From the IMG/VR virus record IMGVR_UViG_2534681831_000037: a stretch of DNA of 24,110 bases. One strand, given 5' to 3'. Every line of letters begins with the position of its first letter. Position 1 is the stretch's first letter. This document shows positions 15,001 to 24,000 of this stretch, piece after piece. This DNA comes from a virus. Taxonomy: Duplodnaviria; Heunggongvirae; Uroviricota; Caudoviricetes. The position numbers are program-made.

Positions 15001-18000
15001 CCTAATGAAATTGTCAATAGGCTATGCCTAATACATCGAGAGTAGGGATTGCCTAACGCGATGCGCATAGGAGACTATTAAGCAATGCTTAGTGGTAAAG
15101 ACTTAGGCCGAGCGATAGAGCAGGCCATTAACAAAAAAATTGCATCAGGAGCCGTCAAATCAAAGGCGGAAATCGCACGTCATTTCAAAGTCCAACCACC
15201 ATCAATCCATGACTGGATTAAGAAAGGTTCGATAAGTAAAGACAAACTTCCAGAACTATGGCGTTTCTTTTCTGATGTGGTTGGTCCAGAGCATTGGGGG
15301 CTTAACGAATACCCCATACCAACCCCATCCACTTCAGATACAAAAAGTGAACTTTTAGACATAAACAGCCTTTATCAAGCCGCCTCTGATGAAAAAAGAG
15401 CAATTGTGGCTTTCATCTTATCTGGAAATGCTACGGAGCCTAGTTGGGTTGATCATGACGTTCGCGCCTACATTGCCGCAATGGAAATGAAGGTAGCTAA
15501 CTATCTGAAAAATCAAGAATCAAAACGGAAAAGCCAGAACATCACCAAGACAGGAACTTAAACTTATATGGTCCGACGGGAAATTCCTAGTTCCCGTTAG
15601 TTAACTCCTACTACCTCTTCCACAAACCATCACCTATTAGGTTGCGCCCAAATTATTAGGCATAGCCTATTGACAAGTAATTAGGCATTTCCTATAGTTT
15701 TCCCATACCAACCCATCCCGTCCCACACAATACAGGGCAATACCTCGAGTTACCAGGCAGTGGTCACGGGCTAAGTAGCCAGCCTGAGGCATACGAACAT
15801 GACGGCAGTTGTTGATTGATACAAAGCGCAGTAGATAAAACGTTCCGCCACCCGGCGTTAAGGGGAAATGAGGTCAACATGGATACTATCGATCTTGGCA
15901 ACAACGAATCTCTGGTATGTGGCGTGTTTCCCAATCAGGACGGCACATTCACCGCCATGACGTATACCAAAAGCAAATCGTTTAAAACCGAAGCTGGCGC
16001 ACGTCGCTGGCTTGCCAAAAATACCAGCTAAACCATTTATTGGATTAATTCAATATTCTTGCTGTAGGGGTATAGCCGAGGCCACCAAAGCCCGGAGGTG
16101 GTGAAATAAAACCGGGCACAACACGAAGGCGCATTTCCGGTATCCATAAAGAGTCGGTCTTGTCTGTTAAATTTAAATGGTGGGAGTGCGCCTCCGGTTG
16201 TGAATAACAACACTGCTGTGTGTAGTCTTGGCGGCATCAGTTTTTTCTTGAAGTTCGACTGATGTCCGCCCTTTTTAAAGTGAATTTTGTGATGCGGTGA
16301 ATGCGGCTAAGCGCACGCGGCACAGTTAAAAGTCATGTTAGTCCTTATTGGTTTGGGTGGGAAAGCCGACTGTAATTGTTAACTGGTTGCAGTCACCTGG
16401 AGGCACCAGGCACCGCATCAACAAAGTTCATTTGTAAAAATGGAGATAATTATGATTGCACATCACTTCGGAACTGATGAAATACCACGTCAGTGTGTGA
16501 CTCCTGGTGATTATGTTCTTCATGAAGGCCGGACATATATCGCCTCGGCAAACAATATTAAAAAACGAAAACTTTATATTCGTAACCTGACCACAAAAAC
16601 ATGCATTTCTGACTGCATGGTTAAAGTCTTCCTCGGTAGTGATGGTTTACCTGTAAAAGCGGAGTCATGGTGATGGATAAGAAAATAAAATGTGCTTACC
16701 ACCTTTGCAAAAAAGACGTTGAAGAAAGCAAAACTATTGAAAGAATGCTTCATTTCATGCACGGAACTTTATCAAAAGACGAACCGAGAAAATATTGCAG
16801 TGAAACTTGTGCCGAAAAAAACCAGATGGCACACGAACTTTAATTAACTGACTATTCGAAACTGAATTTATGCCAGCAATGGCAGGGATTCACTCAACCT
16901 TAATTAAGGAGAAAAACATGATTACCAATTATGAAGCCACTGTTGTAACTACTGATGACATTGTTCACGAGGTCAATCTGGACGGAAAGCGTATTGGCTA
17001 CGTGATTAAAACAGAAAATAAAGAAACCCCATTCACTGTGGTTGATATCGACGGTCCATCAGGCAACGTTAAAACACTTCACGAAGGCGTCAAAAAAAAT
17101 GTGCCTGGTGCACATTGGAAATAATCTACCAGCAGAAAAAAAAGCTGAGTTTCTGGCAACTCTGATTGCAATGAAATTAAAAGGTGAAATTTAAAAAAAG
17201 AAAGCCTGCACAGTGTACAGGCCTGAGTGAAAAACCTGGGACATTTATTCATCACTCGCACTAAATTTTAATCTGAGTTGAGGTTAAAAAACAATGAGCA
17301 CTGACAAACAAAATTTTGCGTTACATTGCGACGCGAAAAATGAGGGCGCAAGAAAACGCCTCGGCATCAAAGGCGGCTTTTTCTGGACAGAGGCAAAAAA
17401 ACTTTCTGTTGCGGTTTCACGCTGCATTGCTGCAATGGACGATGCTGGCTACGATGAAGATGACTTTAAAAAAACCGTTCGCGTAAATTTCCCCGTCGTG
17501 AATGACCTTCCACCGGAAGGCGTGTTTGATACTGAATTCTGCAACCGCTATGAAAAAGGCGGGGAAGATGGCATCACCATGATGGCTATATCCTTCAATG
17601 ACAACATCAACGGTGAAGATGCCACAACTGCTGGCGATGACAACGATGACCCGGACGGAACTATTCCGGATGATGTGGAGAAAAGCGAATCCCCGGACAG
17701 CGACGATGACTGTTCTGAGTGTGAAATTCCCGTCGCCACTCTGAGCCTTACTCATCGCTTCCTTCACCTCTTCTTCTTCAGCAAGGATGAAGATGGAAAA
17801 TACCGGCATCACGCCACACCAGAACAACGCAATAACGTGATCCGTATGGAGATGGACACAGAGGACAGTTACCTTCAGAGCCTGCTTACTGCTGTGCGCG
17901 CCGCACATCATGAACTGGATAAACTGACGAACTATCACCTTAGTCGCCTGGCTGAATCTGTAGGGAAAGCATTCCCCCACTCTGCAAATCATCGCATCAG

Positions 18001-21000: not shown

Positions 21001-24000
21001 CTGAAACGCTGGGCGCGCCTTTATTGCCCTGAAGTGATTCTTGGAGTGTACACCCGGGACGAACTGGACGAACCACAGGAAAAAATCATTAATCCGGTTC
21101 AGGAACATAAAAATACATCCGCCTGCCGTGCGGAACGTGCAACAACAATTATTGAGCAGGATGCCGGGGAAAACTGGATCAGTGCTTTCCGTGAACGTAT
21201 TGAGCAGGCACAAAGCACCGGAGAAACAACATCACTTCGCCAGGAAGTGGAAGATCATAAAAATACACTTGGCGCTCTCTACACAGAACTTAAAGGAAAA
21301 GTGGTTCAGCGTCATCACCGTCTCAATGCTATTGCCCGTATTGAGACGATGATAAATGACCTGCCTTCATCAGGTGATCCAGAAGCAGAACAAAAATTTA
21401 TTGCTCTGGAAAATACGCTGAATGCTGCACGACCACATCTGGGAGAATTATATGAGGCGTATAAAACGACACTGACAGATATGAAACCAGAATATATCGG
21501 CTCCTGATATTTACTATGGCGGTGTAGCCTCACCGCCATAACAAAACTTTATTTTATGAGAGAAAAGACAATGCGGTATGAAAAAGTCAAACCATGTCCG
21601 TTTTGTGGTTGTCCATCAGTAACGGTGAAAGCCATTTCAGGATATTACCGCGCAAAGTGTAACGGATGCGAATCCCGAACCGGCTATAGTGGAAGTGAAA
21701 AAGAAGCACTCGAAAGATGGAATAAACGAACTACTGGAAATAATAATGGAGGTGTTCATGTATAAAATTACTGCCACTATTGAAAAGGAAGGTGGCACTC
21801 CTACTAACTGGACAAGATATTCAAAATCTAAATTAACGAAATCAGAATGCGAAAAAATGCTCTCTGGGAAAAAAGAAGCAAGCGTGTCCAGAGAGCAGAA
21901 AGTAAAGCTGATAAATTTTAATTGCGAGAAACTTCTGTCCTCGTGAGTTGCATTATATACAAATTAGAACTTCATAGCTGATTATTAAAAATCAACCACA
22001 CCCGCCAGTATTCTGTATATTTACTGGCGGTCATATCGTAAGAGGTATGGCAATGAATCTTGTGACACTCAAAACGTGGGGAAAACTCAGATATCCAGAT
22101 AACCCACCATCAATATCAACGCTGAGACGATGGGCAAGGAATGGAAACATTTATCCTGCACCTGAACTACACGGGAGGAGTTACAGGGTGGTTCCAGAGG
22201 CTTTCTATATCAACCCGAATAAGGTTGATACCGATATAACACACCATCAGCCTAATGGGCGACAAGGGAGAGACAGTCCGTTAATGGAGAAGTTAAAACA
22301 TGCAGCGGAAAAAATACGATCCCAATTTGCCTAAAAACTTAACATATCGAAGGAGGGACAAAGCATATTACTGGCGCAACCCTCTGACGAAAGAAGAATT
22401 TACACTAGGTAAAATTTCAAGAAGAGATGCAGTAGCGCAGGCAATTGAAGCAAATCATTATATATACAAAAACTACTCTCCTGCTGCCTTAATTGAAAAG
22501 CTTAAAGGGTTCGACTCATTTACTATGGCAGACTGGATTGAACGTTACAAAACGATTCTTATAAGGAGAAAAGTGTCCAGAAATACTTATAAAATTCGGG
22601 TAAATCAACTGGAGACAATAAAAGAAAAATTGGGAGAGATTTTACTGACAGAAATAACCACTCGCCATATTGCCGAGTTTCTTGATTTGTGGATTGAAGG
22701 AGGGAAAAACACAATGGCAGGATCAATGCGTTCTGTGTTGTCTGATATGTTTCGCGAGGCCATTGTTGAAGGACGTATATCTCAAAATCCAGTAACGCCA
22801 ACAAGAGCACCGAAAATAGTAGTTACAAGAGAACGACTGAAACTAAAGACATACAACTGCATCAGGGAGGCAGCAGATCAACTTCCGGCATGGTTCCCAT
22901 TAGCTATGGATTTAGCCCTTGTAACAGGACAACGTCGCGAAGACATAACGAATATGCGGTTCAGTGATATTTATGATGATCGTCTCCACATCAGGCAAAT
23001 TAAGACAGGAATGATGATTGCTATCCCCCTGTCACTCAGCCTTCCTGTCGCTGGTCTACGGCTTGGTACAGTAGTTGAACGGTGCCGCCTGGTAAGCCGG
23101 GGAGATTATCTAATCAGTGCCGGGATTAGAAAAAACAGCCCTGACGGCAGCATTCACCCGGACGGCCTGACAAAAAAATTTGTCGCAGCCAGAAAATTAA
23201 CAGGTATCCAGTTCAGTGAAAACCCTCCAACTTTTCACGAGATCAGAAGTCTGGCTGGACGATTGTACAAAGAAACATGTGGAGAAGAATTTGCTCAGCG
23301 TCTACTTGGCCACACATCGGAGAAGACAACAAAAATGTATCTTGATGAGAGAGAAAAAACGTACTTACTGCTCTGATTTTAACGTAAATGGATTGTTAAA
23401 TGTATTTTGGTTGTGATATAACCAAAAAAGACCGGAATACAGAAATTCGAGTAAATTTCGGGGAATTTCGGGGGGACGTTTGCAACTAATTGATTTTAAA
23501 TACAATTAAAAAAAGACCGAATACGATTCCTGTATTCGGTCCAGGGAAATGGCTCTTGGGAGAGAGCCGTGCGCTAAAAGTTGGCATTAATGCAGGCTTA
23601 GTTGCCTTGCCCTTTAAGAATAGATGACGACGCCAGGTTTTCCAGTTTGCGTGCAAAATGGTCAATAAAAAGCGTGGTGGTCATCAGCTGAAATGTTAAA
23701 AACCGCCCGTTCTGGTGAAAGAACTGAGGCGGTTTTTTTATTGGAAATCAAAAGGCTATTTTAGGTAATTAACAGAGTTTTTCAGCTCGTTCTATAAACG
23801 GTGCCAGACTCATTTTTTCGCCGGGATTGTTAGGATCATCAATCTGAATCACCGAAATGGGTTGGGCTTTAGTCTTCCCACTGGCAACTTCCTTTTGTGC
23901 GATATCGTTTAAAGGATACTGCACGAGGGTACTTGGGTTAATGACATACAAAGCATTATCCGGTCTGCAAGTCAGCATCACCTCTTCGCGATTAAACGCC

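What the first reader, a model, noticed from the sequence alone, without database searches (positions are those of the whole stretch)
17294..21507. Enlarged RecE (1049 aa) with Cys-rich and SAP-like insertions, paired with a divergent RecT-family annealase
The RecE-like protein carries a CTACGKAGGGNCPDCG zinc-ribbon-like motif around aa 545-560 and three tandem ~25-30-aa SAP-like motifs in the C-terminal nuclease region (IKKHNASLPALMTPEQMKEWIESY, IKEYNASLPPLLKASGTREQLLEQIE, SLPYNISGTKEQLTEIARKI). The partner annealase is 350 aa and differs from K-12 RecT outside the conserved C-terminal block. Variant RecET pairs are of interest for recombineering and for how the exonuclease is targeted.
Basis: partly seen in the sequence, partly recalled or inferred. 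Interest (0 to 1): 0.45.

Follow-up and report, generated by a model that had tools for sequence, protein, structure and literature searches.

The report
Gifsy-type RecET pair in Rac-like prophage
This is an ordinary, already-annotated prophage recombination gene pair (a DNA-end-chewing nuclease plus a strand-annealing protein) of the kind found in Salmonella Gifsy phages; its one little-described feature is four small SAP-like helix pairs that replace the presumed DNA-capturing loop of the nuclease.

Summary
Both ORFs are real: 17294-20443 (1049 aa) and 20455-21507 (350 aa). They are 100% identical to annotated genes of E. coli O111 strains, in a Rac-like prophage.

- The Cys motif (C543/546/554/557) is not an insertion. 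K-12 RecE carries the same CxxC-x7-CxxC.
- The size gain comes from module replacement. The nuclease domain plus recT (19127-21549) share no DNA similarity with K-12, yet sit between Rac-type segments. They are orthologous to Salmonella Gifsy-1 RecE (52% identity) and RecT (48%), which the literature reports as genetically active.
- It contains a conserved ~155-aa, eight-helix block made of four related helix-linker-helix units. By alignment this block replaces K-12 loop 665-698, described as the rim loop presumed to capture dsDNA.
- The annealase is a widespread long RecT subfamily. It has no pairwise BLASTP similarity to K-12 RecT, and its conserved block outside the core is a C-terminal extension.

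Verdict: a known kind of system, of low-to-moderate interest.

The parts
17294..20443 (+). recE-like gene, 1049 aa: 5'-3' dsDNA exonuclease with a long N-terminal region.
   Evidence: ORF. It is the RefSeq CDS WP_000102202.1. NCBIfam NF007259 exodeoxyribonuclease VIII matches end to end at 1210 bits, just under the 1269 cutoff. phrog_607 scores 1272 bits. Pfam Exonuc_VIII and DUF3799 both pass their cutoffs.
17302..18035 (+). N-terminal module (aa ~3-248), not of K-12 type.
   Evidence: No blastn similarity to K-12 recE. Pfam Exonuc_VIII reaches only 42.6 bits here, against 327 bits for K-12. The module lies within a BLASTP segment (aa 19-401) that is 35% identical to the Gifsy-1 RecE N-terminus.
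18036..19126 (+). Rac/K-12-type middle region (aa ~248-611), acidic and low in complexity towards its end.
   Evidence: 79% DNA identity to K-12 recE nt 638-1755. The protein alignment is dense from aa ~260 to 620. Net charge is -28.
18920..18967 (+). CxxC-x7-CxxC knuckle (C543, C546, C554, C557), a possible small zinc ribbon.
   Evidence: Positions. The same spacing occurs in K-12 RecE (C517, C520, C528, C531). Pfam zinc-ribbon models score only below threshold (DZR E 0.38). The motif is absent from Gifsy-1 RecE.
19127..20440 (+). Gifsy-type PD-(D/E)XK nuclease domain (aa ~612-1049).
19403..19885 (+). Helical block (aa 704-864 as modelled; insertion proper ~705-857) of four related helix-linker-helix (SAP/HeH-like) units. 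It stands in place of the K-12 RecE loop 665-698.
   Evidence: Eight helices, pLDDT 90.9. Length is 157-164 aa and N19, N39, L42 and N88 are invariant in orthologs down to 20% identity. Alignment with K-12 and with insert-less homologs places it at the K-12 ~668-690 loop. The role of that loop is taken from PMC11611040.
19424..19582 (+). Units 1 and 2 (aa 711-744 and 731-763, sharing one helix).
   Evidence: Helices 8-21, 28-41 and 52-60 of the insert model. hhalign gives U1~U3 97% and U2~U3 97%. There are weak hits here to Ish1 in the window protein and to Thymopoietin (both helix-extension-helix families to my knowledge, not checked here) in orthologs.
19631..19735 (+). Unit 3 (aa 780-814).
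   Evidence: Helices 77-90 and 101-111. hhalign. SAP_new25 E 0.06-0.09 at this unit.
19739..19828 (+). Unit 4 (aa 816-845). This is the most SAP-like unit (SGTKxxLxxxxRK).
   Evidence: In the 10 orthologous inserts tabulated individually, every Pfam SAP hit (8 of them) falls on this unit, at profile positions 19-35 of 37. The best is E 1e-5, 25.4 bits against a cutoff of 23.9.
20444..20449 (+). Shine-Dalgarno GGAAGG for recT, directly after the recE stop codon (20441-20443). Suggests coupled translation.
   Evidence: Read directly from the sequence.
20455..21507 (+). RecT-family single-strand annealing protein, 350 aa, of the long enterobacterial subfamily.
   Evidence: Pfam RecT scores 147.9 bits at aa 30-209. 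phrog_561 E 2e-145. 48% identical over its full length to Gifsy-1 RecT. No BLASTP similarity to K-12 RecT. Homologs are 345-370 aa across Enterobacterales, some labelled 'enterohemolysin'.
21082..21504 (+). RecT C-terminal extension (aa 210-350), with the near-invariant end motif D-M-x-P-E-Y.
   Evidence: No Pfam match. Conserved family-wide, with D342, M343, P345, E346 and Y347 at 90% or more. Nearly identical over the last ~70 aa in strain JNU, although the RecT core there is diverged.
16681..17301 (+). Upstream Rac-type segment (ydaE/racC region) shared with K-12 Rac.
   Evidence: 89.5% DNA identity to K-12 Rac. Annotation.
21550..21996 (+). Downstream Rac-type segment (ralR / RalA / DUF1187) shared with K-12 Rac. 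It marks the right-hand edge of the replaced module.
   Evidence: 93% DNA identity to K-12 Rac. RalA sRNA lies at 21764-21942 (-) with 220 bits. ralR annotation.

Best explanation
The two genes are the recombination module of a Rac-like prophage of an E. coli O111-type strain. The nuclease resects double-stranded DNA ends 5' to 3'. The RecT protein then coats and anneals the exposed 3' single strand.

The pair is a mosaic. The middle of the nuclease gene and both flanks are Rac/K-12-type. The N-terminal ~250 aa, the whole nuclease domain and recT belong to the lineage typified by Salmonella Gifsy-1/2 RecET. The right-hand replaced segment (19127-21549) covers exactly the nuclease domain plus the annealase. 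That fits the known partner specificity of such pairs.

Shown here:
- the gene structure and the mosaic boundaries;
- the RecE fold and the intact catalytic residues H684, E902, D921, D934 and K936;
- RecT family membership;
- orthology to the Gifsy pair.

Inferred, about 0.4 likely:
- The conserved block of four SAP-like helix-linker-helix units occupies the position of K-12 RecE loop 665-698.
- That loop is described as projecting from the rim of the tetramer channel and is presumed to capture dsDNA.
- The block would therefore form an enlarged collar at the DNA entry side. If the protein tetramerises like K-12 RecE, the collar would hold sixteen units that grip or orient the duplex end.

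Inferred, about 0.35 likely:
- The conserved RecT C-terminal extension ending in DMKPEY docks on the cognate nuclease and/or host SSB.
For: - Identity and context: 100% identical to E. coli 95NR1/95JB1 and an O111:H8 strain. The genes sit between racR-kil-ydaE and ralR-xis-int.
- Family matches: NF007259, phrog_607, Exonuc_VIII, DUF3799 and RecT.
- Mosaic: blastn against K-12 Rac aligns only 16681-17301, 18036-19126 and 21550-21996.
- Orthology: Gifsy-1 RecE is 52% identical over the whole nuclease domain and 35% in the N-terminus; Gifsy-1 RecT is 48% identical over its full length.
- Activity of the relatives: the introduction of PMC3121763 states that both Gifsy phages carry recET orthologs whose activation by mutation suppresses recombination defects, in the context of recB suppressor studies.
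- Active site: residues are invariant in the family.
- Insert: constant length, invariant Asn and Leu positions, and internal repeats at 93-97% probability.
- SAP signal: Pfam SAP hits in 13 of 24 orthologous inserts, SAP_new25 in 8, plus Ish1 and Thymopoietin. SAP domain structures 1zrj, 2do1 and 6h9u_B, the Rho N-terminal domain and DEK appear among the top 60 of 48,164 chains.
- Insert position: it falls within the K-12 665-698 loop. The review PMC11611040 describes that loop as a rim loop presumed to capture dsDNA.
- RecT tail: conserved. [quoted passage not shown]
- Coupling: the recT Shine-Dalgarno sequence abuts the recE stop codon.
Against: - No biochemical data exist for this protein. 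The Gifsy genetics come from orthologs that are only 48-52% identical.
- The insert is acidic: net -4 here and a mean of -8 in orthologs. That is not what a generic DNA-binding collar would look like.
- The window protein itself has no Pfam SAP hit. It shows only SAP_new25 at E 0.06-0.09 and Ish1 at E 0.02-0.03.
- SAP hits in orthologs cover only the second half of the profile.
- I could not inspect the model coordinates, so where the insert sits relative to the channel rests on sequence alignment plus a literature statement about K-12 RecE.
- The NCBIfam equivalog cutoff is narrowly missed (1210 against 1269 bits).
Confidence: 0.6

Rival explanations
1. The four-unit helical block is a protein-binding platform rather than a DNA-binding element. 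It would hold the cognate RecT, for example its long C-terminal extension, or a host factor such as SSB.
For: The block is acidic in all 24 orthologs. One of its structural neighbours, the MANF SAP-like domain, was solved bound to a protein, the BiP nucleotide-binding domain (6h9u_B). The partner RecT has a conserved 140-aa extension that K-12 RecT lacks. [quoted passage not shown]
Against: A stand-alone insert-bearing nuclease (P0317, L003) is followed by a phrog_3657 protein, not by this RecT type. An insert-less nuclease (P0354, L004) is followed by the same phrog_3657 family. In this very small sample, one locus of each kind, presence of the insert does not track partner type. The block also replaces a loop that is presumed to contact DNA.
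Confidence: 0.25
2. This is K-12-type RecE enlarged by two insertions, a Cys-rich zinc ribbon and SAP repeats, paired with a RecT that diverged outside a shared C-terminal block.
For: The protein is 183 aa longer than K-12 RecE. NF007259 aligns end to end. The repeat block is indeed absent from K-12.
Against: The Cys motif is present in K-12 with the same spacing. The whole nuclease domain and recT have no DNA similarity to K-12, and only about 25-29% protein identity in the nuclease core. BLASTP finds nothing between the two RecT proteins. The closest relatives are Gifsy-type proteins that already carry the block and the long RecT.
Confidence: 0.05
3. The pair is a decaying remnant of a cryptic prophage, and the block is a neutral expansion without function.
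For: The prophage is Rac-like. RefSeq marks neighbouring genes as frameshifted or partial, including one directly upstream. K-12 Rac itself is cryptic.
Against: Both ORFs are intact and the catalytic residues are conserved. The module is 95-100% identical in all but one of the 193 genomes that carry it. Close relatives occur in complete phage genome records such as HK225 and mEp237. The block keeps its length and its invariant residues down to 20% identity.
Confidence: 0.1

Closest known systems
Salmonella Gifsy-1 / Gifsy-2 RecE-RecT (STM2632/STM2633). Also RecE/RecT of coliphages HK225 and mEp237 and of Escherichia phage Rac-SA53.
   Same: Same gene order. The nuclease domain, including the four-unit helical block, is 52% identical over 100% of its length. 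The RecT is a long form, 48% identical including the C-terminal DMKPEYIG end. The N-terminal module is related at 35% identity. The Gifsy pair is reported to suppress recombination defects once activated by mutation (PMC3121763).
   Different: The window protein carries a Rac/K-12-type middle region with the CxxC-x7-CxxC knuckle, which Gifsy-1 RecE lacks. It sits in a Rac-like prophage with racR, kil, ydaE and ralR. Sizes differ: 1049/350 aa here, 961/369 in Gifsy-1 and 1129/371 in HK225.
E. coli K-12 Rac prophage RecE (exonuclease VIII, PDB 3H4R) and RecT.
   Different: The nuclease domain is only 25% identical in the structural alignment. It carries a ~155-aa helical block in place of the 665-698 loop. 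The N-terminal ~250 aa have no DNA similarity. The RecT belongs to a different subfamily: no BLASTP similarity, 350 against 269 aa. The K-12-type module is about nine times more common, in 1750 against 193 of 5426 genomes.
SAP / helix-extension-helix motifs (Pfam SAP PF02037, SAP_new25, LEM-like Thymopoietin, Ish1, Rho N-terminal domain).
   Different: The linkers are longer, 6-11 residues. Only the second half of the SAP profile is matched. The window sequence itself scores below threshold. The units are packed into one acidic block inside an enzyme domain rather than forming a free-standing basic motif.

Membership tests
RecE / exodeoxyribonuclease VIII | Meets the NCBIfam equivalog model NF007259 (cutoff 1269 bits). 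| tested here: not met
   1210.3 bits, aligned 1-1048 to profile positions 1-874 of 877. This narrow miss explains the RefSeq name 'PD-(D/E)XK nuclease-like domain-containing protein'. Close alleles with the same C-terminal module do get the name recE.
RecE / exodeoxyribonuclease VIII | N-terminal Exonuc_VIII domain (PF06630) and C-terminal PD-(D/E)XK DUF3799 domain (PF12684). | tested here: met
   PF06630 scores 42.6 bits (cutoff 25) and PF12684 scores 49.9 bits (cutoff 26). K-12 RecE has the same two domains.
RecE / exodeoxyribonuclease VIII | RecE nuclease fold with the H...E...PD...DxK active site. | tested here: met
RecE / exodeoxyribonuclease VIII | Processive 5'-3' dsDNA exonuclease activity and a toroidal tetramer. 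| not testable with these tools
   No multimer prediction or biochemistry was available. Inferred from homology only.
RecE / exodeoxyribonuclease VIII | Encoded directly upstream of a cognate single-strand annealing protein in a prophage early operon. | tested here: met
   recT starts 12 nt after the recE stop and has its own Shine-Dalgarno sequence. Prophage context.
RecT family annealase (Pfam PF03837) | Matches the RecT family profile above its cutoff. | tested here: met
   147.9 bits (cutoff 24), aa 30-209 on profile positions 2-190 of 198. phrog_561 E 2e-145.
K-12-type RecT (Rac prophage RecT subfamily) | Detectable pairwise similarity to K-12 RecT, or an NCBIfam RecT model hit. | tested here: not met
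   Best BLASTP E-value 0.34. No NCBIfam family at E up to 1. No solved structure found by sequence.
SAP domain (Pfam PF02037) | Sequence match to the SAP profile above its gathering score. | tested here: not met
   The window protein has no PF02037 hit at E up to 1; it shows only SAP_new25 at E 0.06-0.09 and Ish1 at E 0.02-0.03. Among 24 orthologous inserts, 13 hit SAP at E up to 1. One reaches 25.4 bits (cutoff 23.9) but covers only profile positions 19-35 of 37.
SAP domain (Pfam PF02037) | Helix-extended linker-helix fold that superposes on solved SAP domains. | tested here: inconclusive
SAP domain (Pfam PF02037) | Binds DNA. | not testable with these tools
   The only indirect evidence is that the block replaces the presumed DNA-capture loop. 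Its acidic net charge argues the other way.
Zinc ribbon / zinc knuckle | Four Cys in a CxxC...CxxC arrangement matching a zinc-ribbon profile. | tested here: inconclusive
   C543, C546, C554 and C557 form CxxC-x7-CxxC, conserved with K-12 C517/520/528/531. Pfam DZR (E 0.38) and the NCBIfam ribbon model (E 0.036) are far below their cutoffs. Metal binding cannot be tested here.

The most novel reading that the evidence does not exclude
The four-unit SAP-like block found in Gifsy-type RecE nucleases is a functional substrate-handling module. Sitting at the channel entrance in place of the short K-12 capture loop, it would change how the ring engages DNA ends, for example in end preference, processivity, or linear-linear versus linear-circular recombination. 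The RecT C-terminal tail ending in DMKPEY would be the element that must match the nuclease. Together these would explain why the nuclease domain and the annealase are exchanged as one cassette. I found no description of this block in the literature I could search.
Probability: 0.3. Interest if true: 0.45.

Novelty: new member of a known kind. Interest (0 to 1): 0.25.

Why it matters
RecET pairs are the working tools of recombineering and direct cloning. Both the role of the RecE N-terminal region and the way the exonuclease meets its annealase are still open questions, according to the reviews PMC11610958 and PMC11611040.

This locus adds no new kind of system. It does offer a natural domain-swap series. 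The same Rac-type middle region is joined to a Gifsy-type nuclease and RecT. In strain JNU the same nuclease is paired with a RecT whose core has diverged but whose tail is conserved.

Together with the SAP-like block at the presumed DNA-capture loop, this yields concrete, cheap constructs for two tests: what determines partner specificity, and what determines DNA-end capture. If the block does nothing, the finding is simply a correctly annotated prophage recombination module.

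Tried and rejected
- Cys motif as an insertion: rejected, because K-12 RecE has it.
- Shared C-terminal block between this RecT and K-12 RecT: rejected.
- Solved structure for this RecT by sequence search: none found.
- Profile of the insert against PDB sequences: nothing significant. The best hit was a Cas1 at E 0.0024 over a short stretch; a SAP domain (2kvu) reached only E 0.56.
- Foldseek of the insert model against the PDB: no match below E 1.
- The afdb50 fold library was not available.
- Coupling of the insert to the long RecT type: checked with one insert-bearing and one insert-less stand-alone nuclease. 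Both are followed by a phrog_3657 protein, so no coupling was seen, on a tiny sample. A third look-up (P0342) returned no DNA.
- Literature searches for a described SAP or zinc element in RecE returned nothing relevant. Lemire et al. 2008 (PMC2566192) is not held.
- I could not inspect the model coordinates. The spatial relation of the block to the active site and channel was therefore not examined directly.

Full report
**Observation**

The two ORFs exist exactly as reported: 17294-20443 (+, 1049 aa) and 20455-21507 (+, 350 aa). The stretch is 100% identical to the chromosomes of E. coli 95NR1, 95JB1 and an O111:H8 strain. There the genes are annotated as 'PD-(D/E)XK nuclease-like domain-containing protein' (WP_000102202.1) and 'RecT family recombinase' (WP_001004413.1).

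The context is a Rac-like prophage: racR, kil, ydaE, a frameshifted small gene, the two genes in question, ralR, DUF1187, excisionase, integrase, then the chromosomal yebY/copD. The four quoted peptide strings are present at aa 543-558, 718-741, 787-812 and 826-845.

**What the large protein is**

- It matches the NCBIfam exodeoxyribonuclease VIII equivalog end to end (1210 bits, just under the 1269 cutoff) and phrog_607 (1272 bits).
- It carries Pfam Exonuc_VIII at the N-terminus and the PD-(D/E)XK DUF3799 domain at the C-terminus, as K-12 RecE does.
- H684, E902, D921, D934 and K936 align with K-12 H652, E729, D748, D759 and K761, and are invariant in the family.

The enzyme is therefore very probably an active RecE-type 5'-3' dsDNA exonuclease.

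**The Cys motif is canonical**

Alignment with K-12 RecE (866 aa, taken from NC_000913) shows dense similarity over aa ~260-620. This stretch includes CNACGQTGGDNCPDCG at K-12 aa 517-532, with Cys spacing identical to the window's C543/546/554/557. It is not an insertion. Zinc-ribbon profiles match only far below threshold. Gifsy-1 RecE lacks the motif.

**The size difference is module replacement**

blastn of the window against K-12 Rac aligns only three segments:
- 16681-17301 at 89.5% identity;
- 18036-19126 at 79%;
- 21550-21996 at 93%.

Nothing aligns over 17302-18035, the N-terminal ~250 aa. Nothing aligns over 19127-21549, the nuclease domain plus all of recT. The left junction of the second gap falls at aa ~611, equivalent to K-12 aa ~585. 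That lies in the stretch just ahead of the crystallised nuclease core, inside the 564-866 span that the review PMC11611040 calls the nuclease domain. PMC11610958 describes the exonuclease domain as the last 260 residues.

Of the 183 extra residues, about 26 lie before the junction and about 157 lie in the nuclease domain.

**Closest relatives**

- The nuclease domain is 52% identical over its full length to Salmonella Gifsy-1 RecE, and the N-terminal module is 35% identical.
- The annealase is 48% identical over its full length to Gifsy-1 RecT.
- Related gene pairs are annotated in phages Rac-SA53, HK225 (RecE 1129 aa, RecT 371 aa), mEp237, SPN3UB and Gifsy-1/2.
- The introduction of PMC3121763 states that both Gifsy phages contain recET orthologs that, once activated by mutation, suppress recombination defects. 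It cites Lemire et al. 2008, which I could not read.
- Among 5426 complete E. coli genomes, this nuclease+RecT module occurs in 193, including O157:H7, O145 and O111 strains. The K-12-type module occurs in 1750.

**The repeat block**

A search of 1.8 billion representative proteins found 3508 relatives of the nuclease domain. About 30 clusters cover the whole 430 aa, down to 22-30% identity. Stand-alone nucleases of ~280 aa match in two pieces and skip the middle.

The skipped part is aa ~705-857. In 23 orthologs it keeps a length of 157-164 aa and four invariant residues: three Asn (N19, N39, N88) and one Leu (L42). Modelled alone, it folds with pLDDT 90.9 into eight helices.

Profile-profile comparison shows four related helix-linker-helix units: U1~U3 97%, U2~U3 97% and U3~U4 93%.

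**Is the block SAP-like?**

- The window sequence itself gives only sub-threshold hits: Ish1 at E 0.02-0.03 and SAP_new25 at E 0.06-0.09.
- Across the 24 orthologous inserts, Pfam SAP is hit in 13 (best E 1e-5, one above the gathering score). SAP_new25 is hit in 8, Ish1 in 5 and Thymopoietin in 2.
- In the 10 inserts tabulated individually, the SAP hits (8 of them) always fall on unit 4 and cover only the second half of the profile.
- Foldseek finds nothing.

I conclude that the units are helix-extension-helix motifs, with a real but weak relationship to SAP. The array as a whole has no solved counterpart.

**Where the block sits**

Alignment with K-12 RecE and seven insert-less homologs places the block in the K-12 segment ~668-690. 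There the insert-less proteins share a short basic motif, xRRTxAGKE.

The review by Fitschen et al. (PMC11611040) states that RecE residues 665-698 form long loops. [quoted passage not shown] The block therefore replaces that capture loop.

This is the basis for my preferred inference that it forms an enlarged DNA-entry collar. Against it, the block is acidic in every ortholog: net -4 here and a mean of -8. A protein-binding role is therefore a serious rival.

One insert-bearing and one insert-less stand-alone nuclease are both followed by a phrog_3657 protein rather than this RecT. That gives no support for insert-partner coupling, but the sample is tiny.

**The annealase**

- It belongs to Pfam RecT (147.9 bits, aa 30-209) and phrog_561.
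- It shows no BLASTP similarity to K-12 RecT, has no NCBIfam hit and has no solved relative by sequence.
- Its homologs are 345-370 aa proteins across Enterobacterales, sometimes labelled 'enterohemolysin'.
- The 140-aa C-terminal extension is conserved throughout, ending in a near-invariant D-M-x-P-E-Y.
- In E. coli JNU the nuclease domain is 90% identical at the DNA level. The RecT core is much diverged (63% protein identity overall). The last ~70 residues are nearly identical, even though DNA identity there is only 79%. That pattern points to strong selection on the tail.
[quoted passage not shown] I therefore infer that the tail is the docking element. This would explain why the nuclease domain and recT travel together.
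- The recT Shine-Dalgarno sequence GGAAGG directly follows the recE stop codon.

**Verdict**

The locus is a correctly annotated, common, Gifsy-type RecET module in a Rac-like mosaic prophage. It is partly wrong: the Cys motif is canonical, the RecT comparison does not hold, and the pair is not an unusual variant.

The only element that appears undescribed is the four-unit block at the capture-loop position. Literature searches found no mention of it. Interest is low to moderate.

Noticed in passing
window 18920-18967; K-12 RecE aa 517-532 (L002:5787-8387:-): K-12 RecE itself carries a conserved CxxC-x7-CxxC knuckle in the acidic linker ahead of the nuclease domain. Gifsy-1 RecE lacks it. I found no paper discussing it. 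It lies in the part of RecE whose function is called unknown and which enhances linear-linear recombination.
   Followed up: partly
L007:3811-4896 (E. coli JNU RecT) compared with window 20455-21504: There is mosaicism inside recT. The RecT core is diverged (63% identity overall), but the last ~70 aa are nearly identical although DNA identity there is only 79%. The adjacent nuclease domain is 90% identical at the DNA level.
   Followed up: partly
protein P0300 (892 aa), region aligned to window aa ~704-864: A distant homolog has a different repeat at the same insertion site: KPTDxQ..Y..W..AGKPE, about five copies. The loop position therefore seems to be a hot spot for acquiring repeated helical elements.
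   Followed up: no
L003:3466-4545 and L004:3841-4776: Stand-alone DUF3799 nucleases in metagenomic contigs are followed by a phrog_3657 protein of 'unknown function' (E 1e-102 and 3e-83). Its position is where an annealase partner would be expected.
   Followed up: no
window 21556-21765 (+) and 21764-21942 (-): A RalR toxin ORF and its RalA antitoxin sRNA (Rfam RF02694, 220 bits) lie directly downstream of recT, as in K-12 Rac.
   Followed up: partly
window 23504-23648: The SraC/RyeA and SdsR/RyeB sRNA pair (179 and 118 bits) lies just beyond the prophage integrase gene (22300-23376). The prophage end therefore abuts this sRNA locus, next to yebY. K-12 Rac is instead integrated next to ttcA.
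   Followed up: no
window 16870-17194: The small gene just upstream of recE (two overlapping ORFs, at the position of racC) is marked as frameshifted in the identical RefSeq record.
   Followed up: no
window 1200-1454, 1567-1815, 3767-3967, 6136-6308: Other prophage-borne RNAs were found in the window: AgvB (anti-GcvB) and STnc100, three tRNAs, isrK plus the C4 antisense RNA and its target, and a sok antitoxin next to a Hok/Gef gene.
   Followed up: no
phage record PP818812.1 (hit H66): 'Actinobacillus phage vB_Apl-pPE4' carries this E. coli module at 96.7% DNA identity over 100% of the query. That is unexpected for a Pasteurellaceae phage and may reflect an E. coli prophage contaminant or a mis-assigned host.
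   Followed up: no
proteins P0004 (715 aa) and P0005 (742 aa): Natural E. coli alleles join a RecE N-terminus directly to this nuclease domain, with most of the middle region deleted. In P0004 the Cys knuckle is gone as well.
   Followed up: no
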